64,000 bases of DNA from Candidatus Poriferisocius sp. (GCF_965214065.1 NZ_CBDCAT010000024.1:5345-69344), one strand, 5' to 3'; positions 5,551 through 47,564 are shown, counted from the first letter of the stretch. Notes: generated from the letters alone by a model not told the origin. Numbers and translations: made by a program.

Positions 5551-6897
5551 TCAGGCGACCTTGCCGGGGCCAGACCCGCCGTTTCTGGTGAAGGGCCGCG
5601 GCGGGCGGCGAAGCAGATTAACTGCCATAGCCGACGCCCGCATGGGCCACGGTGCCCACTCGCCCTGCTCGTCAACCGGCACGCCTTCTCGGGCCACAAT
5701 CCGCCACCCGGTATAGGCCACCACCACCGCATGGGCGCCCACCAGCACCAGGAAGAATGTCCAGGGAGCGGTCAGCGCCATGACCACACCACCGATCACC
5801 GGTCCGAGAATCGAGCCGACTCCGGCGGTTCGCACCAGCGCGGCGCTGGCGCCGTTGAGCTGTGATGTCGGCACCCGGTCGCCGGCAAAGGCAAGGGCCA
5901 GCGAGTATAGGGGGAAGGTGGCGCCTCCGAAGCAGAACATGAGCACCAGCGACAGAGCCGACCCTGGTTCAACCAAGGGCATAATCCCGGCAATGGATGC
6001 GGCCGCGGCGGCAACCACGAAGATCACTGCGCGGCGCGACACCCGATCAGACAACGACCCCAGCGGCCACTGGAAGGCCATGGCCCCGGCAGTGGCCGAC
6101 ACCAGGAACAGGGCGATCCGAGACGTTGGCAGTCCCTCGTTGGCGGCGTAGACCGCGCCCAACCCGAGCAGTGTTCCGTGGCTGATGCCAGCACACAGGG
6201 CGGTGAGCACGCCGAGGGGCGCCAAGGAGATGAGCTGGCGCATCGACAGCGGCTCGGGCACGGTGAGGGGGGGAGCGCTGGTGGCCGACAACGTGATGGG
6301 AACCAGCGCGGCGGAGATGAGCACCGAGGAGATCACGAACAGCTCGAAGCCCTCGGGGTCGGCGCCGTTCAGCAGCAACTGGCCGAGGGTGAGCCCGCCC
6401 ATCGACGAAACCATGTACATCGAGAGCAGTCGCCCCCGGGTGGAGTTGGTGGCCATGTCGTTGAGCCACGACTCCACCACCACCAAGACACCGGCTATGC
6501 ACACGCCGAATACCAACCGCAAAAGGGCCCAGGCGGTGGGGTTGATCCACAAGAGGTGGAGGATGGACACCGCGGAGGCCGTCGAGGCCAGCGCCGCGAA
6601 CACCCGGATGTGGCCCACCGCGGCCAGAAAATGCTCGGCCAGGCGGGTCCCGACCAAGAATCCGAAGAAGAAGCTGGCCATGACGATGCCGCTCACGGCC
6701 AGGCCGAATCCCTCCGATTCGGTTCGCACACCGAGCAGCACTCCCTGGAGGCCGCCGCCCACCTGTATGAACAGCATTCCGAACAGCAAGGCTCGGGCCG
6801 CACCCAGGCCGCGCCCTTGCGGCCCAGCCTCGATCAAGGGACCGCCCACGACTCCACCGTCGTCATCTTCTAGCCACCCGACGGCGTTCTCGGCCAC
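5551..6897 (-). CDS. MFS transporter
   Basis: 448 aa, about 12 hydrophobic segments, MFS loop motif GSLSDRVSRR. Confidence 0.85.
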   Translation of the reverse strand: MAENAVGWLEDDDGGVVGGPLIEAGPQGRGLGAARALLFGMLFIQVGGGLQGVLLGVRTESEGFGLAVSGIVMASFFFGFLVGTRLAEHFLAAVGHIRVFAALASTASAVSILHLLWINPTAWALLRLVFGVCIAGVLVVVESWLNDMATNSTRGRLLSMYMVSSMGGLTLGQLLLNGADPEGFELFVISSVLISAALVPITLSATSAPPLTVPEPLSMRQLISLAPLGVLTALCAGISHGTLLGLGAVYAANEGLPTSRIALFLVSATAGAMAFQWPLGSLSDRVSRRAVIFVVAAAAASIAGIMPLVEPGSALSLVLMFCFGGATFPLYSLALAFAGDRVPTSQLNGASAALVRTAGVGSILGPVIGGVVMALTAPWTFFLVLVGAHAVVVAYTGWRIVAREGVPVDEQGEWAPWPMRASAMAVNLLRRPPRPFTRNGGSGPGKVA

Positions 6898-8290: not shown

Positions 8291-8365
8291 GCCCACGTAG
8301 CTCAGTCAGGACAGAGCAGGGACCTCCTAAGTCCAAGGTCGCAGGTTCGAATCCTGCCGTGGGCG
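8291..8365 (+). tRNA. tRNA-Arg (anticodon CCT)
   Basis: Hand-folded cloverleaf. Acceptor GCCCACG/CGTGGGC, D stem GCTC/GAGC, anticodon loop CTCCTAA, T arm GCAGG-TTCGAAT-CCTGC. No encoded CCA. Confidence 0.9.
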
Positions 8366-8368
8366 CTT
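8346..8368 (+). repeat. attL core (tRNA 3' end) of GI-1
   Basis: Identical 23-mer recurs at 21480-21502. Confidence 0.85.
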
Positions 8369-8492
8369 CCGGGTGTTCTCAGCAGTTGCTCGATGGTCCC
8401 AGTTGATCTCTGTTGTCCCAGCTTAGCGACCGTTTCTGTCAGTTCAGGGTGGTAGGCTGTTCTCAGCAATTGCCGGGCTATCCCCCAGAAAG

Positions 8493-8512
8493 TGGGGGAT
8501 GGATTGGGGGAT
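8493..8512 (+). promoter_or_regulatory. Direct TGGGGGAT repeats (12-bp phase), candidate integrase arm-type sites
   Basis: TGGGGGAT at 8493 and 8505, immediately 5' of the integrase ATG. The same motif pair occurs at 21408/21420 and 44652/44664. A diverged triplet TGTGGGAC/TGTGGGAC/TGGAGGAC lies at 27418/27430/27442. Confidence 0.5.
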
Positions 8513-8516
8513 GGGA

Positions 8517-9669
8517 ATGTCGCTTTTGACCGCTGTAGAAGTCAAGAACGCCGGTGTGGGAAAGCGCCATGACGGGCGCGGATTATTTCTGCGGGTGTAC
8601 AAATCGGGGTCGAGGTGCTGGGTTCTGCGCCTGACCGTGGACGGGCGCCGCCGAGAGATCGGCTTGGGCGGCTGGCCCGCGGTGGGCCTGGCCGATGCCC
8701 GCCGCAAAGCGCACGAGCACCGCGTGGCCGCCGCCGACGGGCGCGATCCGCTCGCCGACAGGCGCCGCTGCGACGTGCCGGTGTTCAGAGAGGCGGCGAG
8801 GATCGTGTGGGAGGCGAACAGGGCCCGGTGGCGCAACGAGCGGACCGCGACTTTGTGGTGGGCGTCGCTGGAGAACCACGCCTTTGCGGCCATCGGCGAC
8901 ATGGCCGTGGACCGCATCACCCAGTCCGACGTTTTGGGGTGTGTGGAGCCGATCTGGACGACGCGCACTGAGACGGCCCGCAAGGTCCGCCAGAGGATCC
9001 GCACCGTGTTGCGCTGGTGCCAGGCCCACGGCTATGTAACAGTGAACGTGGCCGGCGAGGTCATCGACGGCGCACTGCCGCCCATGCCGCGCGTAAAGGC
9101 CCACTTCCGCTCCCTGCCCTATGTCGAGGTCGCCGACGCGCTCGGCGTGGTGGACCGCACCGGAGCATCGGCGTCGGCCAAGCTGTGCCTGCGCTTCGCC
9201 GTGTTGACCGCGGCCCGCTCTGGGGAGGCCCGCAACGCCTCATGGTCAGAGATCGACTTTGCCGCCAGCGAGTGGCGCATCCCCGCCGACAAGATGAAAG
9301 CCGCAACCGAGCACCGGGTGCCCCTCAGCGACGCCGCCCTCGACCTGCTCGACCGCGCCAAAGACAACCACGACGGCTCCGATCTGGTGTTCCCCTCCCC
9401 CCCTCAGAGCCGGCCGCCCACTGTCGAACATGACGCTCACGAAAATCCTTCGCGACGCCGGCCTCGCCGACCGTGCCACCGTCCACGGATTCAGAGCCAG
9501 CTTCCGCACCTGGGCACTGGAGCAAACCGACACCCCCTGGGCAGTCGCAGAAGCCGCACTGGCCCACGCCCTCGGCGACTCAACCCAACAGGCCTACATC
9601 CGAGGCGACGCCTACACCAAACGCCGCCAGCTCATGGACCAATGGGCCCAATACCTGCAACAGCCATAG
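8517..9669 (+). pseudogene. P4-type tyrosine integrase (DUF4102 arm-binding N-terminus), frameshifted
   Basis: Collinear with the intact paralog at 27453..28610. The frame breaks at a C7 run (9397-9403); with C6 it would read FPSPLRAGRPLSNMTLTKIL like the paralog. The C-terminal catalytic part (HGFRASFRTW, QQAYIRGD) lies in frame +1 (9430..9669). Confidence 0.85.
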
Positions 9670-9690
9670 AAGGGCCCCGGCGGGCTGACC

Positions 9691-11094
9691 GGGTCTGTCA
9701 GATTTTTTGTGTATGCGGGCGTGATGGTTTTCATTTGATGTGGTCGGCGATCCGGTCGCCGTAGTGGACGGTCAGCGTGTTCAGTATGGCCTTCCAGCCG
9801 TTGGTCTTGCCGGTGAGGTTGCTGCGGTTCTTTCGTTTGGCGGTGGCGACAAGGTAGAGGATCTTCATCGCGGCCTGCTCGTTGGGGAAGTGCCCTCTGT
9901 GCCGGACCGCTCGTCGGAACCGGGCGTTGAGGCTCTCGACGGCGTTGGTGGTGTAGACGACGCGGCGCAGCTCGGCGGGGAACTCCAGGAACGGTGTGAA
10001 CTCGGTCCAGCTGTTGCGCCAGGCTCGGATCATGGCCGGGTAGGTGTCCTCCCAGTCTTCGGCGAAGGCCTCGAAGAGTGCCTCGGCGGCCCCGACGGTG
10101 GGGGCGGTGTAGATCTCCCGCATTGATCGGGTGATCGGCCCCCTGTGCGTCTTGGACGCGTACCTGAGGCTGTTGCGGACCATGTGCACCACGCAGGTCT
10201 GCACCACCGCGTCGGGCCAGGTGGCGCGGATCGAGTCGGGCAGGCCTTTGAGCCCGTCGCAGCACACGATCAACGCGTCGGCCAGGCCCCGGTTGCGGAG
10301 CTCGCCCAGCATGGCCGCCCACTGCTTGGCGCCCTCGCCGCCCGATGGGCCCAGCCACAGGCCCAAGACGTCGCGCTCGCCTTGGAGATCGACGCCGATG
10401 GCGACATAGACGGGCCGGTTCGCGACCTGCGAGTCGCGGACCTTGACCACTATCGCGTCGATCAGCAGAACCGCATAGACCGCGTCGAGGGGGCGGTTCT
10501 GCCACACGGCCATGTCGGAGACGATCTCGTCGGTGATCTTCGAAATCGTCTCCCTGCTCACCGAGGTGTCGTAGATCTCGGCCAGGTGCGCCTGGATCTC
10601 GCCGGTGGTGAGCCCCTTCGCATAGAGACTGATCACGTTGCCCGACAAACCGTCCAAGCGGCGCCGGTGCTTGGGCACCGTGACGGGCTCGAACGTCCCC
10701 GCCCGGTCGCGCGGCACCCGAAGGTCGATCTCGCCGATCTCGGTGGTGACCCGCTTGGGCGAAGAGCCGTTGCGCGAGTTCCCCGACCCCCGGCCCTCCG
10801 GGGCGTGGCGCTCATAGCCCAAATGGTCGGCCATCTCGACCTCCAAGCCCGTCTGGAGGACCTGGCGGACAAGCCCCGTCAACAGCCCCCCGTCGCCGGT
10901 CAGATCCACGCCATCGGCGCGGGCCCGCTCGACCAACAGCTCGGCCCAGTCCTGCATCGCCGCCTCACCGGCGGCCTCGTCCGCCGACACCGCCGGCATA
11001 TCCTGATCAGTCATAGACATGATCCTTCCCGGCCCGCAGCACCAAACCGCGGACCCTCAGATCACGCCCGATACACAAAATTCCTGACAGACCC
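9691..11094 (-). mobile_element. IS256-family insertion sequence
   Basis: Imperfect terminal inverted repeats of about 34 bp: GGGTCTGTCAGATTTTTTGTGTATGCGGGCGTGAT (9691-9725) versus the reverse complement of 11061-11094. No obvious 8-bp target duplication. Confidence 0.85.
9731..11020 (-). CDS. IS256-family (Mutator-type) transposase
   Basis: 429 aa, typical IS256 transposase layout including CCDGLKGLPDSI. Confidence 0.9.
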   Translation of the reverse strand: MSMTDQDMPAVSADEAAGEAAMQDWAELLVERARADGVDLTGDGGLLTGLVRQVLQTGLEVEMADHLGYERHAPEGRGSGNSRNGSSPKRVTTEIGEIDLRVPRDRAGTFEPVTVPKHRRRLDGLSGNVISLYAKGLTTGEIQAHLAEIYDTSVSRETISKITDEIVSDMAVWQNRPLDAVYAVLLIDAIVVKVRDSQVANRPVYVAIGVDLQGERDVLGLWLGPSGGEGAKQWAAMLGELRNRGLADALIVCCDGLKGLPDSIRATWPDAVVQTCVVHMVRNSLRYASKTHRGPITRSMREIYTAPTVGAAEALFEAFAEDWEDTYPAMIRAWRNSWTEFTPFLEFPAELRRVVYTTNAVESLNARFRRAVRHRGHFPNEQAAMKILYLVATAKRKNRSNLTGKTNGWKAILNTLTVHYGDRIADHIK

Positions 11095-11543: not shown

Positions 11544-12060
11544 CAGGGCCCGCAAGCTGCACCCTGATCCAACAACACCGAATCGGCTCCTAGCCGCAGC
11601 GCCATAGATCGACGCAGCACCTTGGTGCAGGCGTGTGGACGGAAATCGCCCTCTGTTCGCTGCTGGTGCTCGATGGGAGCTTCGGCCTGTGGTGATTCTG
11701 TGTGCTGGGGTGTTTCAGGCTGGGCTGGGCACCTTGGTTGGCTCATTGAGGTCGTCGGTTCCAGGTTCGCTCTGTGCGGTTTCGTCGAATGGCTCATGGT
11801 TCGACATGGAGTGCGCCAGCGATTTTCTGGGGCTGGCAGACCTCCACCCTTCGAGGGCGACGGCCGCGGCGAATTCGACCCCAACGGCCAAATCAGTGCG
11901 ATGACCGCATGAGCCCAACCACAACAAATCCGAGTGTCACTGTTGGGTCTGCCGGGGCCCTCAGCCGGGGGGTTACGGTCCGGTCCTGCGCTCGGCGTTG
12001 ACTCCACAAGATATTGGCCTTGTGCCTGTTGTCAGACGTGTCGCGTCGAGTGTGGGGCCG

Positions 12061-12169: not shown

Positions 12170-13255
12170 ATGACATTTCCAGTCGGGGGCATCGACCCCC
12201 ACCAAGACACCTTCACCGTCGGCATCGTCAACCGCCACGGCGTCGAGATCGTCTGTGAGACCTTCTCGAACACCGCGGCCGGCTACGGCGAGGCGATCGA
12301 TTTGCTCGACTCTCACACCGTCCGCCAGGTCGGCGTCGAGGGCTCGGCCAAATGGGGAGCGCACGTCGCGATCGCGTTGTGCGCGGCAGGGTTCGACGCC
12401 CGCGAGGTCCCCGCGTCGCGCTCAGCGGCCCAGCGCCGCTCGCGGCGCCTGGAAAAGACCGACGCCGTCGACGCGGTCGCCTCAGCGCGCGCCTTGTTGG
12501 CCGAGCCCGAGCTGGGACCCGTCCAAGCACTGGAGGTCTACGACCCGCTCGTCGCCGAGATCGAAGCGGTGCTCGAGCACCGCCGAGCCCTGGTAGCAGC
12601 CAGAACACTCATGCTGCACCACACCGCCGACCAGATCTCCAAGCTCCCCACCGAGGTCCGCGACCAGCTCGACACCGGCGGCAAGATCGAAGGCCGGCTA
12701 CGGCGCCTCGAACACATCGACCCCGCTTGTGCGGCCACCCCCTCGGGCGCGTACCGGCTCGCATGGCTCCAGAACTTCATCGACCAAGACCGCGCCGCCC
12801 GCAGCGAGATCCGCCGATTGGAACGGCTCATCGACGAGCTGCTCGACCGTCACGGCACCACCCTGCGCGACGAACCAGGCATCGGCCCCATCTCAGCAGC
12901 CACCCTGGTGTGCGAGGTCGGAGACCCCCACCGGTTCGGCAGCGAGTCCAAATTCGCCCGCTGGTGCGGCACCGGCGCCGTCGCGCTTTCCTCCGGTGAA
13001 GGCACAGGCAACCCAATCAAACACCGCCGCGACTTTCGGGGCAACCGGCGCATCAACAGCGTGCTCCACATCGCGTCGGTCACCCAGGCCCGACAACAGC
13101 CTGACGCGGTCGCCTACCTCGCCCGCAAAGCCGCCGAAGGCAAGACCCGACGCGAAGCCCGCCGAGCCCACAAACGCCACCTCGCCAACCGCGTCATACG
13201 CCGAATGTGGCGCGACGAACAAACCCGAAAACAACCCCTCGCACACGCCGCTTGA
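12170..13255 (+). CDS. IS110-family transposase (DEDD recombinase)
   Basis: 361 aa. N-terminal GIDPHQDTFTV DEDD motif and a C-terminal Transposase_20-like region (IPGIGP-type EPGIGPISAATLV). Confidence 0.9.
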   Translation: MTFPVGGIDPHQDTFTVGIVNRHGVEIVCETFSNTAAGYGEAIDLLDSHTVRQVGVEGSAKWGAHVAIALCAAGFDAREVPASRSAAQRRSRRLEKTDAVDAVASARALLAEPELGPVQALEVYDPLVAEIEAVLEHRRALVAARTLMLHHTADQISKLPTEVRDQLDTGGKIEGRLRRLEHIDPACAATPSGAYRLAWLQNFIDQDRAARSEIRRLERLIDELLDRHGTTLRDEPGIGPISAATLVCEVGDPHRFGSESKFARWCGTGAVALSSGEGTGNPIKHRRDFRGNRRINSVLHIASVTQARQQPDAVAYLARKAAEGKTRREARRAHKRHLANRVIRRMWRDEQTRKQPLAHAA

Positions 13256-13310: not shown

Positions 13311-13505
13311 CTACGAGTCCTTTCGGCGTCCCAAGCGTAGTTTGCTGTGTTTGGTTCTTGTCTCCAGCCGGTACAAATAAGCGGCGACCAAAAGCGACAT
13401 GGCAATGGCGGACAGAATGAACGGTGTCGGTGGCCAACTCGATATGGTAGAGACTGCCGCTATGACCAGAACGCTCTGGTAGGGCTTAGGCTTGGGGACC
13501 CTCAT
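13311..13505 (-). CDS. Small 2-TM membrane protein, hypothetical
   Basis: ATG 13505 preceded by AAGGAAG. 64 aa with two hydrophobic helices. ATGA overlap with the upstream ORF. Confidence 0.35.
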   Translation of the reverse strand: MRVPKPKPYQSVLVIAAVSTISSWPPTPFILSAIAMSLLVAAYLYRLETRTKHSKLRLGRRKDS

Positions 13506-13750
13506 TTCTTCCTTCTTGCCCACATGGGCGGGCGTGTGGCAGCCCCGTAGCGGGCTTTGTTGTAGCGGTGAACCACCGCCGCCAAAGGCACGCCTACGCC
13601 GACCCAAATGACCAAATCCCACGGGCCCGACAGGGGTATAAACCAAAGCCCCACCCGCAAGCTGGCCAAAACAACAACGACTTGAACGAGGCTCACGAGC
13701 GGCGGAGGCCCGAGCGGGCCTCTATCGCTGCTGCTTCCAGATGATTCCAC
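13502..13750 (-). CDS. Small 2-TM membrane protein, hypothetical
   Basis: 82-aa ORF (GTG start) with two hydrophobic helices. Confidence 0.35.
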   Translation of the reverse strand: MESSGSSSDRGPLGPPPLVSLVQVVVVLASLRVGLWFIPLSGPWDLVIWVGVGVPLAAVVHRYNKARYGAATRPPMWARRKK

Positions 13751-14146: not shown

Positions 14147-17080
14147 TCAGCTGCAGCGCTCCACCTCGGTATCGCCTATTTTGTTCTTCTCGCCCTTAGG
14201 CTTTGCCTGAGTGCCGATGTCATACCAACCGGCGCTGGGAACTTCGAACTCCGCCGACGCGCCAGCAGCTTCAGGCCTGTTCTCGTGATGCCCGCCGCTC
14301 TTGATCTCCGTCACCCACACCTGAACCGGCAGGTTCGCCGGAGACTTGGCCCAAGACACAGAGATTACCCAAGCAGAACTCGTCCGCGAACACGAGACCG
14401 ACTCGAATACCAGTGACGCCCTAGGCGTCGGTGTCGGCGTAGCGGTTGGCGTCGGCTTGGCCGGAGAAGCGGTACCGTCTATCCAATTCGAGAACCCTCC
14501 GGCGTTGAAAGCCGCCACTCTCACCTCATAGGGCGAACCGTTGGAAAGCCCCGTAATCGTGTGCGAAGTGGCCAGATCCGAGCCGTACTCTAGATCCTTG
14601 TATTGGGCGGCTGCCTCGGCCTGGTCCCACGTCTGGGAGGCCTGCTTCCACTGCACCTGATATCCGAACTCCGCAGCCGGCGTATCCGACGACGCCGTCC
14701 AAGAAACCTTTATCTGCTTGTCTCCAGCAGTCAGCAACAAATCCGAAGCAGGTCCAGGAGGGTTCGAAACTGTATCATGCTTGGAATCCCCAGAAGTGTC
14801 GTCAGGATTAGGGGTTGGGGTTGGGGTTGGCGTGCGGAATGGAGGCGGCGGTGTAGGCGTAGCGTCTGGGTTGGTGCTAAGTGCATCGCAGGCCTTTTCA
14901 AGGAACTCGCCCAAGAACAGGCTGCCTGCAAGTTCGTAGAGAGTCTTATAGGGGCTATTGCTAACGTAGTTGATGGACATGCCAGTAACATTCGATGCAG
15001 TGAACTTGCCGTCTGAAGTACAACCCGACTTGAGTATCGCGTCTTGATGTGTGCCGTAGTTGCTTCGCCGTCGCGAACACTGATATTCGAGCGCTTTGTC
15101 AATTATGTACGATGTTCCTATAGCGACGTAAGCGTTTCCACCAGTGAACACTGTAGCTCCTAGTGTAACCAAGTTTTCTGTTAGGAATTGCCCTGTCTCG
15201 GTGCAGATAGCCTTCATTGTTGCGTCATATGCTGTTTTCAAACCGTCCGAGATGGTCTCGCCTATGTCAATGAACACATTTAGGATATTTCCAGTTGTAC
15301 CCTTGTCTTCTATGGCCTTATAGCAATCATGGTTATTGTCTAGTTGTTCCCACTCACCAGGATTGGCAGAGGCAACTTTTCCGCTCTTGTAAAATTCGTT
15401 CAGTTGTTCGTGTGTCATGACTTCAGGAGTTGCAGATGTATACACGAAGTAAATTAATGGTAGTGGTAGTGACAAGTTTTGGTATCCCGCTGGGCAGTTG
15501 TGCGGGTCGTGTTTGGTGGTGGTTGTGTGTGGTTTGCGGTCTGTGGTGGTTGTGACGCATTTGTTGTCGGCGTTGGGGGGTGTTTCGTCGTCGCATGTGT
15601 AGGTGACTCGTTGTCTGTGTATGCATTTGGTGCCTGACAATCTACTGTCTTCGTCACAGGTGTAGGCGGGCCGGGTTTTGCATTTGGTGCCTGACCGGGT
15701 GCTGCCTTCGTTGCATGTGTAGGCGGGCCGGGTTTTGGTGGTGCATTCGTTGTCGGTGTTGGGGGTCGAGTTGTCGGCGCATGTGTAGGTCACCGACGAG
15801 GGAGGGCGCGTGTGGACGCATTTGCCGGCCGACTCGTCTCCTATTTTGCATTCCGGGTCGGTGTAGGTGGTCTTGATGCAGTAGTCGCCCTGGAGGGTTT
15901 CGCCGCTGTCGCAGTCCGGGTCGGTGTAGGTGGTCTTGACGCAGTAGTTGCCCTGGAGGGTTTCGCCGCTGTCGCAGTCCGGGTCGGTGAGGGCTGTGTC
16001 TGTGCATCTATTGCCCGACAGGGACCCTTTCGCGCATGTCGGGTTTGTCCGGCTGGTGGTCGTGCAGGTGCCCCGGTTGGAGTCGAGGGCAGCCGCGCTC
16101 GACGTGCAGTAGGGGGTGGCGACGGTGTGCCGGTAGCAGAAGTCGCCTTTCTTGCTGTAGCCGCTGGGGCAGACCTTGCTGGTTGAGGTTTGAGCGGACA
16201 CGTTGATGCAGGCTCCCCAAAGAAGAACGTATCCCGCTGGGCATTGGGCCACCTGAGTTTCTACGCAAACGGGGATGCCGAAAGCCCCGGTGCCGAGCTT
16301 GCCCGAGGCGCACCGCCATGACGCCGCGGTGGTCGTGGTGGTGACGCACTTGCCGTTTCGCAGGCTGCCGCTGGCGCAGATCGGAGTTCCGGTATCTACG
16401 GTGGTTGCACACTTGCCGAACACCAAGTTGCCGCTGGCGCACGTGGCGACCTCGGAGGTGGTGGTGGCGCACTTGCCGTTTCGCGGGCGGCCGCTGGCGC
16501 AGGTCGCTATCTCGGAGGTGGTGGTGGCGCACTTGTTGTTGGAGTTGGGGGGCGACCCGTCGCCGCAGGCCGGTGTTCCCACGGTGCGCTCGCATACTTC
16601 CAAGACGCTCTGGCCGACGAGGGTGTACCTCTTCAAGTCATAGCCGGTATCGCAGACCGGCGTGGAGATTGCAGGCCTCGTCGTCACGCACCACCCGCTC
16701 TGGTCCGGCACACAACTCGCCTCAGCGTCCGTCACGCACCACCCGTCCTGGTCCGGCACACAACTCGCCTCGGCGTCCGTCTCGGTGACGCACACCAAGC
16801 CATAGTCCGGCACACAACTCGCCTCAGCGTCCGTCACGGTAGTCGTCGTCTTTACACACCGCTCGGCGACCCCAGACGACGGGGCGCTGTCCTCCAGGTC
16901 GTACCCATCGGGGCACGTCGTCACAGTCTCGGGCTCGTGGGCCTGGGCGGCGGGAACAGCGATCGCGCTGAACAAAACAGCAGCCACAACGAACACGACA
17001 AGCCCTCCGGCCCGCCGTTTCCTGAACCCGGCCCCGCTAGCAGTCGGATACGGACGGTGAGGCTTTGTCGATGCGGACAT
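14147..17080 (-). CDS. Large secreted Cys-rich modular repeat protein with FN3 domain
   Basis: Start set at ATG 17080 (AGGAGG RBS). The N-terminal signal/anchor is GGLVVFVVAAVLFSAIAVPAAQA. Three families of Cys-pair repeats are present: TDAEASCVPDxxGWCV, GKCATTTSExATCASG and TYTDPDCDSGETLQGxYC. There is a low-GC central domain, a P/T linker, and an FN3-like region (IKVSWTAS...YEVRVAAFNAGG). Confidence 0.8.
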   Translation of the reverse strand: MSASTKPHRPYPTASGAGFRKRRAGGLVVFVVAAVLFSAIAVPAAQAHEPETVTTCPDGYDLEDSAPSSGVAERCVKTTTTVTDAEASCVPDYGLVCVTETDAEASCVPDQDGWCVTDAEASCVPDQSGWCVTTRPAISTPVCDTGYDLKRYTLVGQSVLEVCERTVGTPACGDGSPPNSNNKCATTTSEIATCASGRPRNGKCATTTSEVATCASGNLVFGKCATTVDTGTPICASGSLRNGKCVTTTTTAASWRCASGKLGTGAFGIPVCVETQVAQCPAGYVLLWGACINVSAQTSTSKVCPSGYSKKGDFCYRHTVATPYCTSSAAALDSNRGTCTTTSRTNPTCAKGSLSGNRCTDTALTDPDCDSGETLQGNYCVKTTYTDPDCDSGETLQGDYCIKTTYTDPECKIGDESAGKCVHTRPPSSVTYTCADNSTPNTDNECTTKTRPAYTCNEGSTRSGTKCKTRPAYTCDEDSRLSGTKCIHRQRVTYTCDDETPPNADNKCVTTTTDRKPHTTTTKHDPHNCPAGYQNLSLPLPLIYFVYTSATPEVMTHEQLNEFYKSGKVASANPGEWEQLDNNHDCYKAIEDKGTTGNILNVFIDIGETISDGLKTAYDATMKAICTETGQFLTENLVTLGATVFTGGNAYVAIGTSYIIDKALEYQCSRRRSNYGTHQDAILKSGCTSDGKFTASNVTGMSINYVSNSPYKTLYELAGSLFLGEFLEKACDALSTNPDATPTPPPPFRTPTPTPTPNPDDTSGDSKHDTVSNPPGPASDLLLTAGDKQIKVSWTASSDTPAAEFGYQVQWKQASQTWDQAEAAAQYKDLEYGSDLATSHTITGLSNGSPYEVRVAAFNAGGFSNWIDGTASPAKPTPTATPTPTPRASLVFESVSCSRTSSAWVISVSWAKSPANLPVQVWVTEIKSGGHHENRPEAAGASAEFEVPSAGWYDIGTQAKPKGEKNKIGDTEVERCS
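15852..15990 (-). repeat. 63-bp in-frame tandem repeat (2.2 copies) inside the surface protein gene
   Basis: Units at 15852-15914 and 15915-15977 differ at 2 positions, plus a partial third copy. They encode the TYTDPDCDSGETLQGxYC modules. Confidence 0.8.
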
Positions 17081-17110
17081 GAGGCGGCCCTCCTGAAGGG
17101 ATCGGAAATG

Positions 17111-17131
17111 CGGCGGATATATGCCTTTATT
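17111..17131. repeat. IR-L of candidate invertible segment
   Basis: CGGCGGATATATGCCTTTATT. Its reverse complement occurs at 17463-17483 with 1 mismatch (20/21). Confidence 0.75.
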
Positions 17132-17462
17132 CGCCGCGTTCAGGCCCCTTGGGATGTGGAAGAGGTCGCTGGGGTTGCGGGCGCGGGACCCGCGCCCAAG
17201 CTGGGGATTCGCCAGACCGAGACGAGCAGCCGGAGCGGTGAGGCGTTCTTGGTCCTGGCTCTGCGGCGGCTGTGCTCTTGGCACCGGCCCCGTGCCGGTC
17301 GGCGTCTTGTGCGTGGCGGGGGGCCTCTTCGCCCAGCGGAGTCGGCCTGCTGGCTCGGTCCCTGTTTTGCCTGGTCGGCGGGGGTATTGCATGTTCGCCG
17401 TTGGGGCTGTGCCGTGTGGTGTTTGGGGAGGGGTTGACAGCATCTCTGGTTCTGAGCTAGGC

Positions 17463-17483
17463 AATAAAGGCATTTATCCGCCG
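17463..17483. repeat. IR-R of candidate invertible segment
   Basis: AATAAAGGCATTTATCCGCCG, the reverse complement of IR-L with 1 mismatch. Both arms translate to NKGIYPP in the ORF track. Confidence 0.75.
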
Positions 17484-17529
17484 GGTTGCAAGCTGTTGAC
17501 CAGGCTTTTCTCCTGGTTGTCGGCTGGGC

Positions 17530-18621
17530 TTGCACAGCGGGTGTGGGCTAGACATCGGCGGTGAATCCAACCACCACCCCCCCCCCGGCCATATGTGCTC
17601 GCATAGCGCCTCGGATGCCGGTGCTGGTCTTTGCTGTGTCAAGGGGCTGATCGCCCGGGCCGACGCCTCAGCGTTGTCTTTGAACACCCGAAAGACCTAT
17701 GAGACCGGGTGGAACAGCTGGGCCCGGTGGGCGGCGTCGAACGGTTACCGGGTTTCCAAGCCGACAGTCGAGAGGCTCCGGGACTGGCTGGCCTGCCTGC
17801 ATTTGGAGGGGAAGAAGCCCTCTACTTTGCGCACCTACCTGGCCGCTGTCGCCCACCGCCTACGCGGCCGCCGCGGCCCCAACCCGGCCCGCCACCCCCG
17901 CGTTAGCCTGCTGCTGGCAGGGCTTGCCCGCTACGCCGCTGAGCGCGGCGTCGCAACCCGGCAGGCCCAAGGGCTGCGCTGGGAGCGCATACTGCTGATC
18001 GAGGCCGCCGCACCCGCCTCGAGGCGCAATCAGCCCGGCGGGCGGCTGGAAACCCCCCAACAAGCCCGAAAACGCGCTGACACAGACATCGCCATGGCCG
18101 CCGTGGGCCACAACGGCGCCCTCAGGTGCTCGGAGCTGTTGGCCCTCACCTGGGGCGCTGTCGACTTCTCCGAAGGGCCGGGGCTGGCCACCATATGGAT
18201 CGGCCGCTCCAAGACCGACCAGAACGGCAAAGGCGCGGCCGTTCCCATCTCCGAATACGCCGCCCAAGCCCTCGCCCGATTGAGGCCAGAGGACTTCGAT
18301 CCCGACGCCCGCATATTCGATTTCTCGCCCAGCACCGCCCGCCGGCGCCTAAAAGCCGCCGCGAAAGCCGCAGGCATCGACCCCGCCGGGATCTCCACCC
18401 ACTCCCTGCGCGTCGGCATGGCCCAAGACCTCGCCGCCTCAGGAACAGGCACAATCGGCCTCATGCTCGCAGGCCGATGGGACACCACCGAAACCGCCGC
18501 CCAATACGCCCGCCGCCTCCAAGCCCAACACACCCCCGCCGCCCAATACCTCAAAACCCAACTCGCCGTGACAACAGGCCAATCCGAGCCCGGCGAAACC
18601 CGCAGACCGCAGGCAGCGTGA
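17530..18621 (+). CDS. Tyrosine recombinase (XerC/D / phage-integrase family); start uncertain
   Basis: N-terminal SAM-like core-binding region (LSLNTRKTYETGWNSW) and catalytic HSLRVGMAQDL and AAQYARRL (Tyr). Alternative start at ATG 17593. A C10 tract lies at 17577-17586. Confidence 0.8.
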   Translation: MHSGCGLDIGGESNHHPPPGHMCSHSASDAGAGLCCVKGLIARADASALSLNTRKTYETGWNSWARWAASNGYRVSKPTVERLRDWLACLHLEGKKPSTLRTYLAAVAHRLRGRRGPNPARHPRVSLLLAGLARYAAERGVATRQAQGLRWERILLIEAAAPASRRNQPGGRLETPQQARKRADTDIAMAAVGHNGALRCSELLALTWGAVDFSEGPGLATIWIGRSKTDQNGKGAAVPISEYAAQALARLRPEDFDPDARIFDFSPSTARRRLKAAAKAAGIDPAGISTHSLRVGMAQDLAASGTGTIGLMLAGRWDTTETAAQYARRLQAQHTPAAQYLKTQLAVTTGQSEPGETRRPQAA

Positions 18622-22872: not shown

Positions 22873-24111
22873 TCACCGCGCTTTCCCCGACGCGGTACAC
22901 GTGCCTGGCGTCTCCGGCGAGGATTCCACCGTATGGGGGTGGATTTCGACTTCGCCGATCGATATCCATCCGGCTGCGTACCTGTTGATGGCCGGAGTGC
23001 CGAATGCCAGTGTTTGCCCATTGCCCATAACGTCCATCAGATTGGTTCCAAAGTGCCTGTCGGGCCGGTCGTAGCTGTGGGGCCAGCTCAGGGCGTGGCC
23101 CAGCTCATGAGCGAGGAAGAAGCCGGTGGGGGTCGGGGGGATGTGGCCGGGCACCGAGGTGATTCCCAAGGTGCTGAGCCGGATCTCCCTGGAGTTCTCG
23201 GGCCATTGGGGAGAGCACTCATTCGGTATCCGCTCTTCCAAGTGACGGTTGTAGCAGTTGCCGGGACCTCCTCCTCCGATCCGGCAATCTGCTGGGGTTC
23301 CGCAGTCAATCATTGCCAGGTCGATGACGATAACCGCGCCGTTGGCCTCTTGAGGTGAGGGAGTATTGCGAATGTTGTCGTAGCAGTCCTGCTCGTTCTC
23401 GGCCTTCACCGTTCCGCCGGCAATGAACTCAGCGAGATATGAACCGCCGGACAGCCATGAGAAATAGGGCTGGACCCAGCTTGTAAATCGCTCAGCCATC
23501 TCAACCGGGTCGTTCTCCAACGTTCCGGCCTCGGTATCGCAAGCCCAAACCACCCAGGTGTCTGTCCCAATGGTGTAAGCCCGGTCAATGTTGGCGAATG
23601 CGATCAGTCCGGACGGGTCGCTGCGATAGATCAATTCGGTTCGAATTTCCAGGAACTCCGCGATGGCTTCTTCACTGTTTGGAGCATCCGCCTGACCGTC
23701 GTCGTTGGCCCCCCAGCAGCTGATGGCTTCGTCAGCCCCGATAGCGCAGGAGTGCGTGCGACCAGCGGTGACATCAAGATCGAGGGTGGGGGCGGGGGTG
23801 GCGATAGGCTCAGGGGTCGGAGCGGGCGCGCCGTCGGCACAGCCGCCGGGGACGATCTGGGTGTCGATGTCGAATCGACAGCGGTACACGTTCAGTAGGG
23901 CTTCTTGGTTGGCAATCAGGCTGTCGCGGGCCTCTATATCTGCCGTGGGCGCTGAATGACGACTTATTCCATTTCTGAATTGTGGCGGTATCCCGTCAAG
24001 TCGGTAGGCGGGGAGAGGGTGGAGAGGCTGGAGCTTCGGGGCCTTCGCCTGCTTCGGTACAAACGCCGAAGTCACTGCGGCAGGCAGTATCAGCGTTGGC
24101 GAGATGCTCAC
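22873..24111 (-). CDS. Secreted zinc metalloprotease-like protein with RCC1-like repeat
   Basis: HExxH (FLAHELGHALSWPH), RCC1-like THSCAIGADEAISCWGANDDGQADAP, and an N-terminal NQEALLNVYRC...VPGGC module. Confidence 0.65.
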   Translation of the reverse strand: MSISPTLILPAAVTSAFVPKQAKAPKLQPLHPLPAYRLDGIPPQFRNGISRHSAPTADIEARDSLIANQEALLNVYRCRFDIDTQIVPGGCADGAPAPTPEPIATPAPTLDLDVTAGRTHSCAIGADEAISCWGANDDGQADAPNSEEAIAEFLEIRTELIYRSDPSGLIAFANIDRAYTIGTDTWVVWACDTEAGTLENDPVEMAERFTSWVQPYFSWLSGGSYLAEFIAGGTVKAENEQDCYDNIRNTPSPQEANGAVIVIDLAMIDCGTPADCRIGGGGPGNCYNRHLEERIPNECSPQWPENSREIRLSTLGITSVPGHIPPTPTGFFLAHELGHALSWPHSYDRPDRHFGTNLMDVMGNGQTLAFGTPAINRYAAGWISIGEVEIHPHTVESSPETPGTCTASGKAR

Positions 24112-27217: not shown

Positions 27218-27292
27218 GCCCCTGTAGCTCAGTCAGGACAGAGCAGTTGACTTCTAATCATCAGGCCGCAGGTTCGAATCCTGCCGGGGGCG
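27218..27292 (+). tRNA. tRNA-Arg (anticodon TCT)
   Basis: Hand-folded. Acceptor GCCCCTG/CGGGGGC (one G-U), D stem GCTC/GAGC, anticodon loop CTTCTAA, T arm GCAGG-TTCGAAT-CCTGC. The T arm is identical to the tRNA at 8291. Confidence 0.9.
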
Positions 27293-27452
27293 CTTTTTGA
27301 TGTTGCCGGGCTTTTCCGAATGCCCCCGCTAGTGCCCGAAGTCCCAGCGTATCCAGGGTTTTGTCGCTTCGTGGTGGTACACTGTTCCCAGGCTTAACTG
27401 CACAATCCCGCCAAAAGTGTGGGACAGATTGTGGGACGGATTGGAGGACAGG

Positions 27453-28610
27453 ATGGGACATCTCACCGCTGCGAAGGTCAAGGCAGCCGGGCCGGGGAAA
27501 TATCACGACGGGCAGGGCTTGCACCTTCGCGTGACCAACACCGGGTCCAAGTCTTGGTTTTTGCGCCTCACTGTGGACGGGCGGCGACGCGACATGGGTC
27601 TGGGCGGCTGGCCGGAGGTGAGCCTTGTCGATGCCCGCCGCAAGGCTCTGGAGCACCGCACCGCCGCCGCCGACGGTCGCGATCCCGTTGCCGACAACCG
27701 CCGGGGCGAGGCCCCCGTTTTCCGAGAGGCGGCCAAGGCGGTGCTCGAGGCGAACCGGCCGCGGTGGAGGGGCGAGCGCCAGGCGAGTCTGTGGTGGAGG
27801 TCGCTTGAGAACCACGCTTTCCCGGTGATCGGCGACATGAGGGTGGACCGCATCACCCAGTCCGACGTGCTGGGGGCTCTGACCCCGATCTGGACCACCC
27901 GCCCCGAGACGGCCCGCAAGGTCCGCCAGAGAATCCGGGCCGTGCTGCGCTGGGCGATGGCGCACGGCTACGTCGTGTTCAACGTCGCCGGAGAGGTGAT
28001 CGACGGCGCTCTGCCGCCGATGCCCAAGGTGCAGTCGCATTTCCGGTCGCTGCCCTATTTCGAGGTCGCCGACGCGCTCGCCGTCGTGGACCAGACCAAG
28101 GCGTCGCCTTCGGCCAAGCTGTGCTTGCGGTTCTTGGTGTTGAACGCGGCCCGCTCCGGCGAGGCCCGGAACGCAACCTGGGACGAGATCGAGTTCGGGG
28201 CCTGCGAGTGGCGGATACCAGCAGAGCGGATGAAGGCAGCGAGCGAGCACCGGGTTCCGCTGTCGGAGGCCGCAATGGCCGTGCTGGATCAGGCCAAAGA
28301 CCACCACGACGGCTCCGATCTGGTCTTCCCGTCGCCGCTCAAACCGGGACATCCGCTCAGCAACATGACCCTGACGAAAATCCTTCGCGATGTCGGGCTC
28401 GCCGACCGGGCAACCGTCCACGGCTTCCGGGCATCATTCCGCACCTGGGCGCTGGAGGAGACAGACACGCCCTGGGCGGTGTGCGAGGCGGCTTTAGCCC
28501 ACAGCCTGGGCGACTCGGTGCAGCAGGCATACATCCGCGGCGACGCGTTCGCCAAGCGCCGAAAGCTAATGGACCGGTGGGCGCAGTACCTGGAACAGCG
28601 ACAGGGATGA
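27453..28610 (+). CDS. int: P4-type tyrosine integrase (DUF4102 N-terminus), intact
   Basis: Start set at ATG 27453 (GGAGGA RBS). N-terminal arm-binding region is HLTAAKVKAAGPGKYHDGQGLHLRV. Catalytic motifs are HGFRASFRTW and QQAYIRGD. Paralog of 8517..9669. Confidence 0.9.
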   Translation: MGHLTAAKVKAAGPGKYHDGQGLHLRVTNTGSKSWFLRLTVDGRRRDMGLGGWPEVSLVDARRKALEHRTAAADGRDPVADNRRGEAPVFREAAKAVLEANRPRWRGERQASLWWRSLENHAFPVIGDMRVDRITQSDVLGALTPIWTTRPETARKVRQRIRAVLRWAMAHGYVVFNVAGEVIDGALPPMPKVQSHFRSLPYFEVADALAVVDQTKASPSAKLCLRFLVLNAARSGEARNATWDEIEFGACEWRIPAERMKAASEHRVPLSEAAMAVLDQAKDHHDGSDLVFPSPLKPGHPLSNMTLTKILRDVGLADRATVHGFRASFRTWALEETDTPWAVCEAALAHSLGDSVQQAYIRGDAFAKRRKLMDRWAQYLEQRQG

Positions 28611-29894: not shown

Positions 29895-30060
29895 CCGGGT
29901 TGTTCTCACGAACAGCAAGCTAGAGCCCAGCAGCCACTCGTCTCTCATCACGCAGGCACCACCTTGCCCTGCGAGTTCTCCAGGACTGCGCCACACAGCC
30001 TGGGTTATGCCGCGGGGGTTCATATCGTCTCGAGTTCCCCAGTTCTGTCGGTAGGCTGCA

Positions 30061-31017
30061 TTGGCGCGTCGCCCCGATTTCGTGAGCGATCTGGCTGATG
30101 AGATCGAGCAGTATTTCGACAAGGAGGGCATCCGGCACGAACGAGGCGAGTCGCCAAGTCCTGCGGACCTGCTGGAGCGGTATCTCTATCACTTCGACAA
30201 GGTGATCGTGCCGGGCCCGCGCCGTGTGCATTTCTCGGCTGAGCTCCGCGCCGCACTGGGGACGCTAGACGGCCGCTATGGGACCGCGATCGAGGCCATC
30301 AAGAGCCGCTTCGAAGCGGGAGGCGACCTCGCAGAGTTCCTTAGCAGGAAGGCGGCCGACGCCGGTTTCAAAGACAGGCTGCCGAGCGATTTCGGCATCC
30401 ATCATTTCCATCTCGGAGCAAAATCCGCCCTTAGCGAACGGCATGTGCGGCGCACAGGCGACTTGCTGTTCGTGTTCGTCCAACCCCTCGACGCGTAATT
30501 CCTCGACGTCAGGAAGCACCCAAACGACAGCGATCCCTGCGATTTCGGCTGGTGCGATGTCGACCTGCTGAACATCATCGACTCGAATTGGCCCGAAGCG
30601 TTGGAGCGCTACACCGCGCCCGGCGTCAAAGGAAGCACGCTCACCGACGAGCAGAGAAAAGTGCTGCGCAGCAAGAACACGAACGTCGCCACACAAGTCG
30701 GCGACAAGGTGATCGCGCCGCCAGGGGGCGGCCTTATGGCTTATGGCTCCAACCTCAAGTGCAAATCCCAGGCCATGAGGTTGCTGACCGAGATACGCCG
30801 CATCGAAAAGATATTCGAGGACCACTGGGACGAACGCGAGGGCGCGTTACGGAGTGCCGGCTTCGAAGACCCCGACAGCGCAGACTTGCGACTTGCGCGA
30901 ATCGCCGACTCCAGCGTCCCGCCTTCCCAGCTCAGATCAATGAATGGGGATTTGAGCTGGATCGGCTGGGCGATCGTAGAAGTCTCGACTGGAACCCTCA
31001 TCGACTGGAGCTTCTAG
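30061..31017 (+). pseudogene. Hypothetical 318-codon gene interrupted by one in-frame TAA
   Basis: ORFs 30061..30498 and 30601..31017 are in the same frame. The only stop between them is TAA at 30496-30498, and the readthrough ...FVQPLDA*FLDVRKHPNDSDPCDFGWCDVDLLNIIDSNWPEALERY looks coding. Confidence 0.6.
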
Positions 31018-40817: not shown

Positions 40818-40874
40818 CCTTCCAGTCGGGTGGTTATCGCTGGCTGATAGTGGCCTGTGCTGGTCTGTCCCAGT

Positions 40875-45271: not shown

Positions 45272-45298
45272 CATCTGCCATTGGGTCTGACAGCCCTG

Positions 45299-46366: not shown

Positions 46367-46373
46367 TTCTGTT

Positions 46374-46736: not shown

Positions 46737-46744
46737 GGCGGGTC

Positions 46745-47137: not shown

Positions 47138-47147
47138 CGCCTTTCCC

Positions 47148-47555: not shown

Positions 47556-47564
47556 CGCCTCTGC

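What the first reader, a model, noticed from the sequence alone, without database searches (positions are those of the whole stretch)
14147..17080. Mosaic 977-aa secreted protein: three Cys-pair repeat families, a sharply low-GC central domain, and FN3
The protein has several distinct parts in order. It begins with a signal/anchor. Next come short modules each containing paired cysteines: TDAEASCVPDxxGWCV x3-4, GKC(A/V)TT...C(A)SG x about 6, TYTDPDCDSGETLQGxYC x3 and RPAYTCxExSxxSGTKC x3. Some of these are encoded by near-identical DNA tandem repeats (63-bp units at 15852-15990; roughly 48-bp units at 16690-16830). A central domain of about 190 aa (roughly 14.9-15.5 kb) is conspicuously AT-rich compared with the rest of the gene. 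A P/T linker, an FN3-like domain and a C-terminal domain follow. The compositional break inside a single ORF suggests a recently grafted foreign domain, either an effector or an adhesin head. The repeat DNA allows length variation. I cannot assign the central domain to any family.
Basis: seen in the sequence. Interest (0 to 1): 0.6.

Follow-up and report, generated by a model that had tools for sequence, protein, structure and literature searches.

The report
Recombinase-switched mosaic secreted protein cassette
The gene is real and encodes a secreted stalk-head-tail protein of a sponge-symbiont bacterium, and it probably belongs to a previously undescribed cassette in which a dedicated DNA recombinase flips a promoter to turn such swappable-head proteins on and off, although no flipped copy has yet been seen.

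Summary
Window 14147-17080 (minus strand) is an intact 977-aa gene. It encodes a signal peptide, 21 Cys-bounded hairpin repeats, a novel roughly 210-aa central module, a P/T linker, FN3 and a C-terminal beta domain. GC3 falls from 0.8-0.95 to 0.33-0.6 in the central module.

The "recent foreign graft" reading is only partly right. The central "head" carries the same GC3 dip in all four homologues, although synonymous sites have largely diverged. Paralogous loci with other heads show the dip too. One paralogue shares the junction, linker, FN3 and C-terminal domain but has a different head. So heads are exchangeable modules in a polymorphic family of sponge-associated Acidimicrobiia (Ca. Poriferisocius).

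New findings:
- The gene lies divergent from a dedicated tyrosine recombinase.
- A conserved inverted-repeat pair (window 17111-17131 / 17463-17483) brackets a 331-bp segment between them.
- That segment carries the only conserved promoter-like element, and it points away from the gene.
- Nine loci with different cargo proteins share this layout.
- The likely mechanism is a fimS-like invertible promoter, assembled OFF everywhere. No flipped copy was seen.
- Two small membrane proteins downstream track this head type. They also occur as orphan pairs, which resembles immunity genes.
- The head fold remains unassigned.

The parts
14147..17080 (-). CDS of the 977-aa secreted mosaic protein. RefSeq calls only the C-terminal 684 aa (WP_420431794.1).
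16940..17080 (-). Signal peptide (aa 1-47, predicted cleavage AQA|HEPE).
   Evidence: Hydropathy peak at aa 21-49. The mature N-terminus is conserved in homologues.
15557..16915 (-). Stalk of 21 Cys-bounded hairpin repeats (aa 56-508, 42 Cys), partly encoded by in-frame tandem DNA repeats.
15290..15511 (-). Pre-head junction (aa 524-597; H-x-C-P-x-G-Y...PLP...W-x-x-D-x-x-H-D-C-Y-K). It is shared with loci that carry other head types.
   Evidence: tblastn hits to L007, L006 and L005; alignment
14876..15289 (-). Head core (aa 598-735). It is a novel, mostly helical, low-GC3 module with 4 conserved Cys and is the best-conserved part of the family.
   Evidence: AlphaFold pLDDT was 40.
14741..14875 (-). 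P/T-rich linker (aa 736-780), including the conserved PPPPFRTPTPTPTP.
14474..14740 (-). FN3 domain (aa 781-869).
   Evidence: PF00041, E=3.3e-10; 60-67% identical to the FN3 domains of L007
14150..14419 (-). C-terminal Cys...Cys beta-type domain (aa 888-977), shared with L001 and L007.
17089..17094 (-). Shine-Dalgarno AGGAGG, 8 nt before the ATG at 17080.
17111..17131 (.). Gene-proximal inverted-repeat arm (CGGCGGATATATGCCTTTATT), 30 nt from the start codon.
17132..17462 (.). Putative invertible segment of 331 bp. Its interior is not conserved, but its length is (core-to-core distance 347-350 bp in six loci).
17434..17463 (+). Conserved promoter-like element TTGACA-18 nt-TAGGCA. It abuts the recombinase-proximal arm and reads toward the recombinase as assembled.
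   Evidence: The TTGACA is invariant in all eight loci aligned or tabulated. It was not called by the strict sigma-70 scan.
17463..17483 (.). Recombinase-proximal inverted-repeat arm (AATAAAGGCATTTATCCGCCG).
17593..18621 (+). Dedicated tyrosine recombinase (342 aa from the ATG at 17593). The catalytic residues R, K, H-x-x-R, W and Y are conserved.
13502..13750 (-). TM1, an 82-aa protein with two hydrophobic helices and a conserved HRYNKARYGAATRPPMW tail. It co-occurs with this head type.
13311..13508 (-). TM2, a 65-aa membrane protein whose start overlaps the TM1 stop.

Best explanation
**What it is.** The 977-aa ORF is an intact gene for a Sec-exported protein with a stalk-head-tail build. 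In order it has a signal peptide, 21 disulfide hairpin repeats, a conserved pre-head junction, a novel roughly 140-aa helical head, a P/T linker, FN3 and a small beta domain. It belongs to a polymorphic family found only in sponge-associated Acidimicrobiia (Ca. Poriferisocius and relatives). In this family the stalks, heads and tails have been shuffled between loci. The low-GC3 stretch is the exchangeable head module, not a recent local graft.

**The cassette.** The gene is one part of a conserved cassette:
- a dedicated tyrosine recombinase, transcribed divergently
- a segment of about 330 bp bracketed by 15-22-nt inverted repeats with the consensus GGCGGATAWWTGCCTTTAT
- the big gene, whose RBS and ATG lie about 30 nt outside one arm
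- two small membrane proteins, TM1 and TM2

**How it most likely works (inferred).** The recombinase inverts the segment, as at fimS or ipuS. The only conserved promoter (TTGACA-18-TAnnnn) sits inside the segment against the recombinase-side arm and reads outward. In the assembled state it drives the recombinase, and the big gene is off or low. After inversion it would drive the big gene. Several such loci per genome would give phase-variable, mutually distinct surface or secreted proteins.

**Role of TM1/TM2 (inferred, weaker).** They are cognate protective, immunity-like partners of this head type. That would make the head a membrane-directed effector, as in a polymorphic-toxin module.

**Shown versus inferred.**
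- Shown: gene anatomy, the composition break, mosaicism, the conserved cassette layout, conservation and within-locus co-variation of the arms, and TM1/TM2 co-occurrence and orphan pairs.
- Inferred: actual inversion, the ON/OFF logic and toxin-immunity activity.
For: **Anatomy.**

**Family and dip.** An exhaustive HMMER search of 1.84 billion representatives finds only five proteins with the head. All come from Acidimicrobiia or sponge metagenomes. The GC3 dip is present in all four head homologues and in other head types.

**Mosaicism.**

**Switch.**
- The window has a 21-nt IR with 20/21 matches and 331 nt between the arms.
- The arm consensus occurs exactly twice in 64 kb against 0.01 expected.
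- The same IR pair lies between the recombinase and a large signal-peptide gene in L002, L004, L006, L007, L008, L009, L013 and L098-100.
- The inner core is identical between the two arms of each locus and co-varies between loci: GCCGTTAT twice in L007, CGCCTTTAT twice in L002, TTAATTGCCTTTAAAC twice in L004. The outer halves keep arm-specific differences.
- Core-to-core distance is 347-350 bp in six loci, although the interiors are unalignable.
- TTGACA is invariant and abuts one arm.
- The cargo ATG lies 28-37 nt from the other arm with only an RBS between.
- L004 has a terminator hairpin inside the segment facing the gene.
- The recombinase catalytic residues are invariant.
- Recombinases lying next to their switch are described as typical of promoter-inversion systems (PMC6083910).
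- Short-read contigs repeatedly end at the arms.

**Partner genes.** TM1 occurs with 4 of 4 W-type heads and 0 of 3 other heads. Intact orphan TM1-TM2 pairs exist without the big gene in L094 (beside a recombinase remnant) and in L095-97. Orphan immunity genes are a known feature of effector-immunity systems (PMC10539506).
Against: **Switch.**
- No flipped copy was seen. All nine loci, and all contigs that span the segment, have the promoter facing the recombinase.
- The -10 element lacks the usual final T in four of the five loci inspected, and the strict scan calls no promoter.
- The Logan contig breaks lie 8 nt inside the arm rather than at its edge. They could reflect paralogous repeats rather than mixed orientations.
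- A weak -35-like motif (GGGGCTTGAAC) inside the gene-side end could be a fixed promoter for the gene.

**Toxin-immunity reading.**
- The head is not C-terminal.
- Its most hydrophobic window scores only KD 1.28, so there is no pore-former-like hairpin.
- No known toxin fold or family matches.
- Two structure predictions failed with pLDDT 40.
- TM1 starts 396 nt after the big gene's stop.
Confidence: 0.55

Rival explanations
1. A foreign low-GC domain was recently grafted into an otherwise native gene of this genome.
For: There is a sharp GC3 break inside one ORF. The locus sits in an island rich in integrases, IS elements and defence genes. Module shuffling in the family is real.
Against: The same head with the same dip occurs in three other genomes. 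Identity is 55-70% at the amino-acid level and 61-79% at the nucleotide level over the head core, and synonymous sites are largely diverged. The head is the most conserved part of the protein, not the newest. Other head types show the same dip.
Confidence: 0.12
2. There is no inversion. The recombinase is simply the integrase of a small mobile island that carries the secreted protein as cargo. The inverted repeats are recombinase or regulator binding sites flanking a fixed divergent promoter region. The protein is a constitutively made eukaryotic-like (FN3) surface protein for interaction with the sponge host.
For: In L004 the recombinase, gene and TM1 form a low-GC block of about 4 kb between uvrA and an ABC transporter gene. 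The loci sit at different chromosomal sites. All assemblies show one orientation. There is a semi-conserved -35-like motif on the gene side. Symbiotic Acidimicrobiia are enriched in eukaryotic-like proteins, a set that includes fn3 (PMC11706023).
Against: Integration leaves direct repeats at the element ends, not an inverted pair around 330 bp of non-coding DNA beside the recombinase gene. The arm motif has no third copy in the window or the loci. An exactly identical inner core within each locus, alongside arm-specific outer halves, is the pattern expected of crossover sites. The only invariant promoter element points away from the cargo gene.
Confidence: 0.25
3. The switch is real, but the head is an adhesin or receptor-binding domain for the host or for phage decoy, not a toxin. 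TM1/TM2 are membrane partners that anchor or assemble the protein on the cell.
For: The stalk, FN3 and beta-domain build is typical of adhesins. There is no LPXTG or other covalent anchor, so a membrane partner would be useful. The head has conserved Cys and no toxin signature.
Against: Intact TM1-TM2 pairs persist where the big gene is absent. An anchor that has lost the protein it anchors would be unlikely to be retained. TM1/TM2 track the head type rather than the FN3 or C-terminal domain shared with L007.
Confidence: 0.25

Closest known systems
fimS / hyxS / ipuS promoter-inversion switches of E. coli (FimB/FimE, IpuA/IpuB tyrosine recombinases; ipuS controls the UpaE autotransporter adhesin; PMC6083910)
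   Same: Both have a short promoter-bearing segment bracketed by inverted repeats, lying directly upstream of a surface-protein gene. Both have a tyrosine recombinase encoded next to its switch. Segment size is of the same order (from memory, fimS is about 314 bp).
   Different: The arms here are longer (15-22 nt). The recombinase is divergent, and the switch promoter would drive it in the OFF state. The recombinase clade is unrelated: it scores only 25-36 bits to Xer-type NCBIfam models. The host is an uncultured actinobacterial sponge symbiont. Inversion has not been demonstrated.
Recombinase-linked invertible promoters for outer surface proteins in Bacteroides fragilis (Weinacht et al. 2004, listed in the references of PMC11602134), and the cwpV switch of Clostridioides difficile (from memory; related review PMC5914908)
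   Same: Both involve multiple paralogous switches per genome, each controlling a large variable surface or secreted protein. Most loci are OFF in most cells.
   Different: The phylum, the repeat sequences and the cargo proteins all differ. Here each locus has its own adjacent recombinase paralogue.
Polymorphic toxin systems with Sec or repeat-stalk delivery (Rhs/WapA-type; modular organisation reviewed in PMC8636562; orphan immunity in PMC10539506)
   Same: Both have a conserved delivery or stalk part, a pre-effector junction and a variable module of lower GC. Both have small downstream genes specific to the module type and orphan copies of those genes. L008 even has its low-GC module at the C-terminus, followed by membrane-protein genes.
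   Different: In the window protein the variable module is internal and is followed by a linker, FN3 and a beta domain. There are no Rhs/YD, LXG, PAAR or known toxin domains. Toxicity is untested. The recombinase-coupled promoter switch is not a described part of these systems.
Variable surface antigen loci of Mycoplasma and Ureaplasma with Xer-like recombinases (PMC3047005, PMC3599477)
   Same: A tyrosine recombinase beside repeat-rich surface antigen genes, with short inverted repeats as crossover sites.
   Different: Those systems invert or shuffle coding segments among several genes. Here the inverted repeats bracket only a non-coding promoter segment.

Membership tests
Invertible-promoter (inverton) phase-variation switch | A pair of inverted repeats brackets a short DNA segment upstream of the regulated gene. 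| tested here: met
   Arms at 17111-17131 and 17463-17483 match at 20 of 21 positions. The consensus occurs twice in the window against 0.01 expected. It is conserved in nine loci.
Invertible-promoter (inverton) phase-variation switch | A promoter inside the segment reads outward through one arm. | tested here: inconclusive
   An invariant TTGACA, an 18-nt spacer and a TAnnnn element abut one arm in eight loci. The -10 is non-canonical and the strict scan found none. No transcript data are available.
Invertible-promoter (inverton) phase-variation switch | A site-specific recombinase with intact catalytic residues is encoded nearby. | tested here: met
   PF00589 and PF02899 match. R, K, H-x-x-R, W and Y are invariant or nearly so in 12 relatives. 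The adjacent divergent position is conserved.
Invertible-promoter (inverton) phase-variation switch | Both orientations exist in a population. | tested here: inconclusive
   Only one orientation is seen in nine loci and several independent contigs. These are consensus assemblies, and reads could not be accessed. Contig ends at the arms are suggestive only.
Polymorphic toxin-immunity system | A variable effector module sits on a conserved delivery scaffold and is demarcated by a conserved junction. | tested here: met
   The junction is shared across head types. Heads differ while the linker, FN3 and C-terminal domain are shared. The low-GC3 module is present in every locus.
Polymorphic toxin-immunity system | The toxin domain is at the extreme C-terminus, with the immunity gene immediately downstream. 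| tested here: not met
   In the window protein the head is at aa ~598-735 of 977. TM1 starts 396 nt after the stop codon. The feature is met only in paralogue L008.
Polymorphic toxin-immunity system | A cognate small protein co-varies with the effector type, and orphan copies occur. | tested here: met
   TM1 occurs with 4 of 4 W-type heads and 0 of 3 other heads. Orphan TM1-TM2 pairs are found in L094-L097.
Polymorphic toxin-immunity system | A recognisable toxin fold or demonstrated toxicity. | tested here: not met
   There is no Pfam, NCBIfam or PDB hit to the head. AlphaFold gave pLDDT 40 twice. Toxicity cannot be tested with these tools.
Integron (IntI + attI + attC cassettes) | An IntI-type integrase and attC-like sites at cassette 3' ends. 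| tested here: not met
   The best NCBIfam hit is a generic XerA/integron-integrase model at 26-36 bits against a cut-off of 220. The arm motif has no third copy downstream of the cargo.
Colicin-type pore-forming domain | A hydrophobic helical hairpin of transmembrane-level hydropathy, or a family match. | tested here: not met
   The maximum 19-aa Kyte-Doolittle score in the head is 1.28. There is no Pfam hit.
Fibronectin type III domain (PF00041) | A profile match above the gathering score. | tested here: met
   40.5 bits against a cut-off of 25, aa 785-866.
Sortase-anchored (LPXTG) Gram-positive adhesins | A C-terminal LPXTG motif, hydrophobic segment and charged tail. | tested here: not met
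   The protein ends ...GDTEVERCS. The only hydrophobic segment is the signal peptide.

The most novel reading that the evidence does not exclude
These loci are a new class of self-contained phase-variation cassettes in an uncultured animal symbiont. Each carries its own recombinase paralogue, a length-constrained invertible promoter of about 350 bp, and a polymorphic secreted protein whose low-GC head is a previously unknown membrane-directed effector. Dedicated two-helix membrane immunity proteins neutralise that effector. Sponge symbionts would then switch competitive or host-facing weapons on and off one locus at a time.
Probability: 0.3. Interest if true: 0.8.

Novelty: new variant of a known kind. 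Interest (0 to 1): 0.64.

Why it matters
Sponge-associated Acidimicrobiia are uncultured, and the way they manage their surface towards a phagocytic host, phages and competitors is mostly inferred from counts of eukaryotic-like domains. A conserved recombinase plus inverted-repeat promoter module in front of large, shuffled secreted proteins gives a concrete hypothesis. It can be tested by mapping public reads to both orientations. If confirmed, it would extend promoter-inversion phase variation to this lineage. It would also define a new head domain family and a new small membrane partner family. Finally, it would explain why these genes are mis-annotated (RefSeq of 977 aa) and why they break short-read assemblies.

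Tried and rejected
**Assigning the head domain**
- Pfam, NCBIfam, PHROGs, PADLOC and PDB sequence searches found nothing beyond FN3.
- AlphaFold2 was run on 3- and 4-sequence alignments of the head. Both gave pLDDT 40, so no fold search was run.
- A JGI metagenome scan with head peptide patterns found no relative.
- The GTDB genome scan found only the Acidimicrobiia MAG contig already in hand.

**Looking for a flipped switch**
- The interiors of the switch segments are too diverged between distant loci to align.
- Closer loci all align in one orientation.

**Other structure and sequence checks**
- RNAalifold on the recombinase 5' leader found no consensus structure across 7 loci.
- Alignment of the regions upstream of TM1, done to look for an independent promoter, was uninformative.
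- Rfam found only two tRNAs in the window.

**Ideas rejected**
- Transmembrane anchor or pore-former hairpin in the head: hydropathy is too low.
- Integron: wrong integrase type and no attC-like site.
- A MITE-like insertion carrying the inverted repeats: the arms co-diverge with each locus and always sit at the same place.
Full report
**1. The observation**

Window 14147-17080 (minus strand) is an intact ORF of 977 codons. Three things support the start at 17080. An AGGAGG lies 8 nt upstream. A signal peptide follows immediately. The mature N-terminus, AxA|HEP...C-P-D-G-Y, is conserved in homologues. RefSeq annotates only the last 684 aa as an 'FN3 domain-containing protein' of Candidatus Poriferisocius sp., while another gene call gives 977 aa.

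Tandem Repeats Finder confirms in-frame DNA repeats of 63, 48, 57 and 60 bp. At the protein level, the several Cys-pair 'families' are sub-types of one module. There are 21 consecutive C-x(7-19)-C hairpins joined by Thr-rich strands, holding 42 of the protein's 50 Cys. FN3 is confirmed.

The compositional break is real and lies at synonymous sites. GC3 is 0.33-0.60 for aa ~525-735 and 0.80-0.97 in the stalk. Credible genes of the window have GC3 of 0.70-0.95.

**2. The family**

The central module is very rare.
- A word-indexed search of 5.8 billion proteins found two relatives.
- An exhaustive profile search of 1.84 billion cluster representatives found five proteins, one being the window's own product.
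- All come from Acidimicrobiia MAGs or sponge metagenomes.

The two short-read homologues were called as fragments only because assembly gaps sit in their repeat regions. Read across the gaps, both have the same overall build: signal peptide, Cys hairpins, junction, head and PT linker. Their tails differ. The long-read homologue P0004 (L004) has the same head behind completely different, Cys-free repeats and a different tail.

The head is the best-conserved segment, at 55-70% identity. It carries the GC3 dip in every genome: core GC3 of 0.54, 0.52 and 0.49 in loci of 62-66% GC, and 0.35 in L004, whose host flanks are about 52-60% GC. Codons at conserved residues are identical in only 38-59% of cases.

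**3. Mosaicism is nevertheless real**

Loci found through the neighbouring recombinase encode other large signal-peptide proteins.
- L007 shares four parts with the window protein: the pre-head junction (36%), the PPPPFRTPTPTPTP linker, FN3 (60-67%) and the C-terminal domain (50%). Its head is unrelated.
- L006 combines P0004-like repeats with yet another head.
- L008 has Cys hairpins, many FN3 domains and a C-terminal low-GC module.

In each of them the non-repeat head or effector part has GC3 0.3-0.4 below the rest of the gene. So the dip marks an exchangeable module class, as in polymorphic toxins (PMC8636562). It does not mark a one-off insertion. One reading consistent with the numbers is that heads circulate in, or derive from, a lower-GC pool and are only partly ameliorated. 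In L004 the whole block is low-GC. This reading is an inference.

**4. The recombinase and the inverted-repeat segment**

The gene is divergent from a tyrosine recombinase at 17593-18621. Between them lie two arms, 17111-17131 and 17463-17483. They are 21 nt long, match at 20 of 21 positions and have 331 nt between them. The arm consensus GGCGGATAWWTGCCTTTAT occurs exactly twice in the 64-kb window, in inverted orientation, against 0.01 expected.

The same arrangement is present in L002, L004, L006, L007, L008, L009, L013 and L098-100. It appears wherever a recombinase of at least about 50% identity has enough upstream sequence. More distant recombinases (33-40% identity) lack it.

Four features fit crossover sites of an invertible element.
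- (a) The inner core is identical between the two arms of a locus and changes in both arms together between loci. Examples are GCCGTTAT in L007, CGCCTTTAT in L002 and TTAATTGCCTTTAAAC in L004. The outer halves keep arm-specific differences that are shared between loci.
- (b) Core-to-core distance is 347-350 bp in six loci, 328 bp in L013 and 122 bp in L004. The interiors are otherwise unalignable between distant loci.
- (c) An invariant TTGACA, an 18-nt spacer and a TAnnnn element sit inside the segment, against the recombinase-side arm, reading outward.
- (d) The cargo gene's ATG is 28-37 nt outside the other arm with only an RBS between, which leaves no room for an external promoter. L004 also has a terminator-like hairpin inside the segment, aimed at the gene.

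The recombinase keeps its catalytic residues. It is not XerC/D or an integron integrase by NCBIfam cut-offs. It has many paralogues, several of them per Ca. Poriferisocius genome judging from shared contig lengths. Recombinases encoded next to their target are described as typical of promoter-inversion systems (PMC6083910).

**5. What argues against the switch**

- Every locus and every contig that spans the segment shows the same orientation, with the promoter toward the recombinase. That is expected if each of several loci is OFF in most cells, but it is not evidence for inversion.
- Contigs ending at the arms are suggestive. Five Logan assemblies all start 8 nt inside the arm. L101 starts within an arm. 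L010 and L011 end at the far end of the segment. These breaks could also come from paralogous repeats or homopolymers.
- The -10 element is non-canonical, and the strict promoter scan is negative.
- A semi-conserved -35-like motif at the gene-side end could be a fixed promoter.

I put the probability of a functional inverton at about 0.65.

**6. The downstream membrane proteins**

TM1 (13502-13750) and TM2 (13311-13508) each have hydrophobic helices and overlap by 7 nt.
- TM1 is present downstream of all four W-type heads and of none of the three other head types. TM2 is present in three of the four.
- The TM1 family has 16 members in the database.
- In L094 an intact TM1-TM2 pair sits beside only a remnant of the recombinase N-terminus, with no big gene.
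- In L095-97 the pair follows an IS element or small ORFs.

Retention of orphan partners is characteristic of immunity genes (PMC10539506). It is hard to reconcile with a pure anchor role. This is the basis for the weaker inference, at about 0.4, that the head is an effector countered at the membrane.

Several points count against that inference. The head is internal. It has no transmembrane-grade hydrophobic hairpin, with a maximum KD of 1.28. It carries conserved cysteines. It matches no toxin family. Its structure could not be predicted, with pLDDT 40 in two attempts.

**7. Setting**

The locus lies in a mobilome-rich stretch. It contains two P4-type integrases beside tRNA-Arg genes, of which one is cut by a Mutator-family transposase. 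It also contains an IS110 directly after TM2, a Type ISP restriction enzyme, GmrSD, a KAP NTPase and DUF4143 ATPases. A GC-rich conjugative element lies at 45-64 kb. Symbiotic Acidimicrobiia are reported to be enriched in defence systems and eukaryotic-like proteins, a set that includes fn3 (PMC11706023).

**8. Verdict**

- The best account is a polymorphic, probably phase-variable, secreted protein cassette with a novel head and head-specific membrane partners.
- It is a new variant of known kinds (invertons and polymorphic effector loci) in a lineage where neither has been described, to judge from the literature searches.

Noticed in passing
window 17577-17586; L006 ~5965-5995; L089 ~115-135: A homopolymeric C tract lies immediately 5' of the recombinase ATG. 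Its length differs between loci: 10 in the window, at least 26 in L006 and 13 in L089. It could modulate recombinase translation or reading frame by slippage.
   Followed up: partly
L001 8557-8587: The homologue that lacks the recombinase and the inverted repeats has TTGACA-GGGAC-A(13)-G-TAATCA upstream of its start. A 13-nt poly-A inside a 19-nt promoter spacer resembles a slipped-strand phase-variation site, which would be an alternative switch.
   Followed up: no
window 14147-17080: RefSeq (WP_420431794.1) annotates only the C-terminal 684 aa from an internal GTG. This drops the signal peptide and 12 of the 21 hairpin repeats.
   Followed up: yes
L004 9536-9575 and 12262-12301: A 40-nt direct repeat (93% identical) has one copy inside the 5' end of the recombinase gene and the other just after TM1. 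It brackets the switch, the big gene and TM1. It may be a footprint of cassette exchange or of a lost tandem recombinase. L002 also has a second recombinase fragment at its contig start.
   Followed up: partly
L001 11969-12211 and 10866-11024; L004 8318-8581: A third small membrane protein family (PWYEYL...RFPALKSxxVGYFD) is associated with some cassettes but is absent from the window. L001 also carries a duplicated fragment of the big protein's C-terminal domain (about 11780-11872).
   Followed up: partly
L007 5921-5960; L008 5920-5960; L089 30-70; window 17484-17525: Several loci have a short GC hairpin followed by a T-rich run between the switch promoter and the recombinase start. It may be an attenuator that keeps recombinase levels low. 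No consensus structure was found across all seven loci.
   Followed up: partly
window 45000-64000: GC rises to 0.70-0.77 here. The genes include a TraG/TrwB-type coupling protein, a VirB11-like ATPase, an SLT-like transglycosylase and a 2033-aa ResIII/helicase protein. This is probably an integrated conjugative element.
   Followed up: partly
window 8291-11020 and 27218-28610: Two tRNA-Arg genes are each followed by a P4-type integrase. The first integrase appears truncated where a Mutator-family transposase gene overlaps it. An IS110 transposase (12170-13255) ends 56 nt from the TM2 stop.
   Followed up: partly
window 57361-57440: ARAGORN calls a tRNA-Ser(cga) inside the 2033-aa helicase ORF, but Rfam's tRNA model does not reach its threshold there. 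It is probably a false positive.
   Followed up: partly
window 22873-24111, 28794-30131, 36893-38290, 39678-44177: This is a cluster of defence-type genes. It holds a Type ISP restriction-modification enzyme (1100 aa), two GmrSD-like nucleases, a KAP NTPase, an RCC1-repeat protein, and HNH and UvrD-like genes.
   Followed up: no
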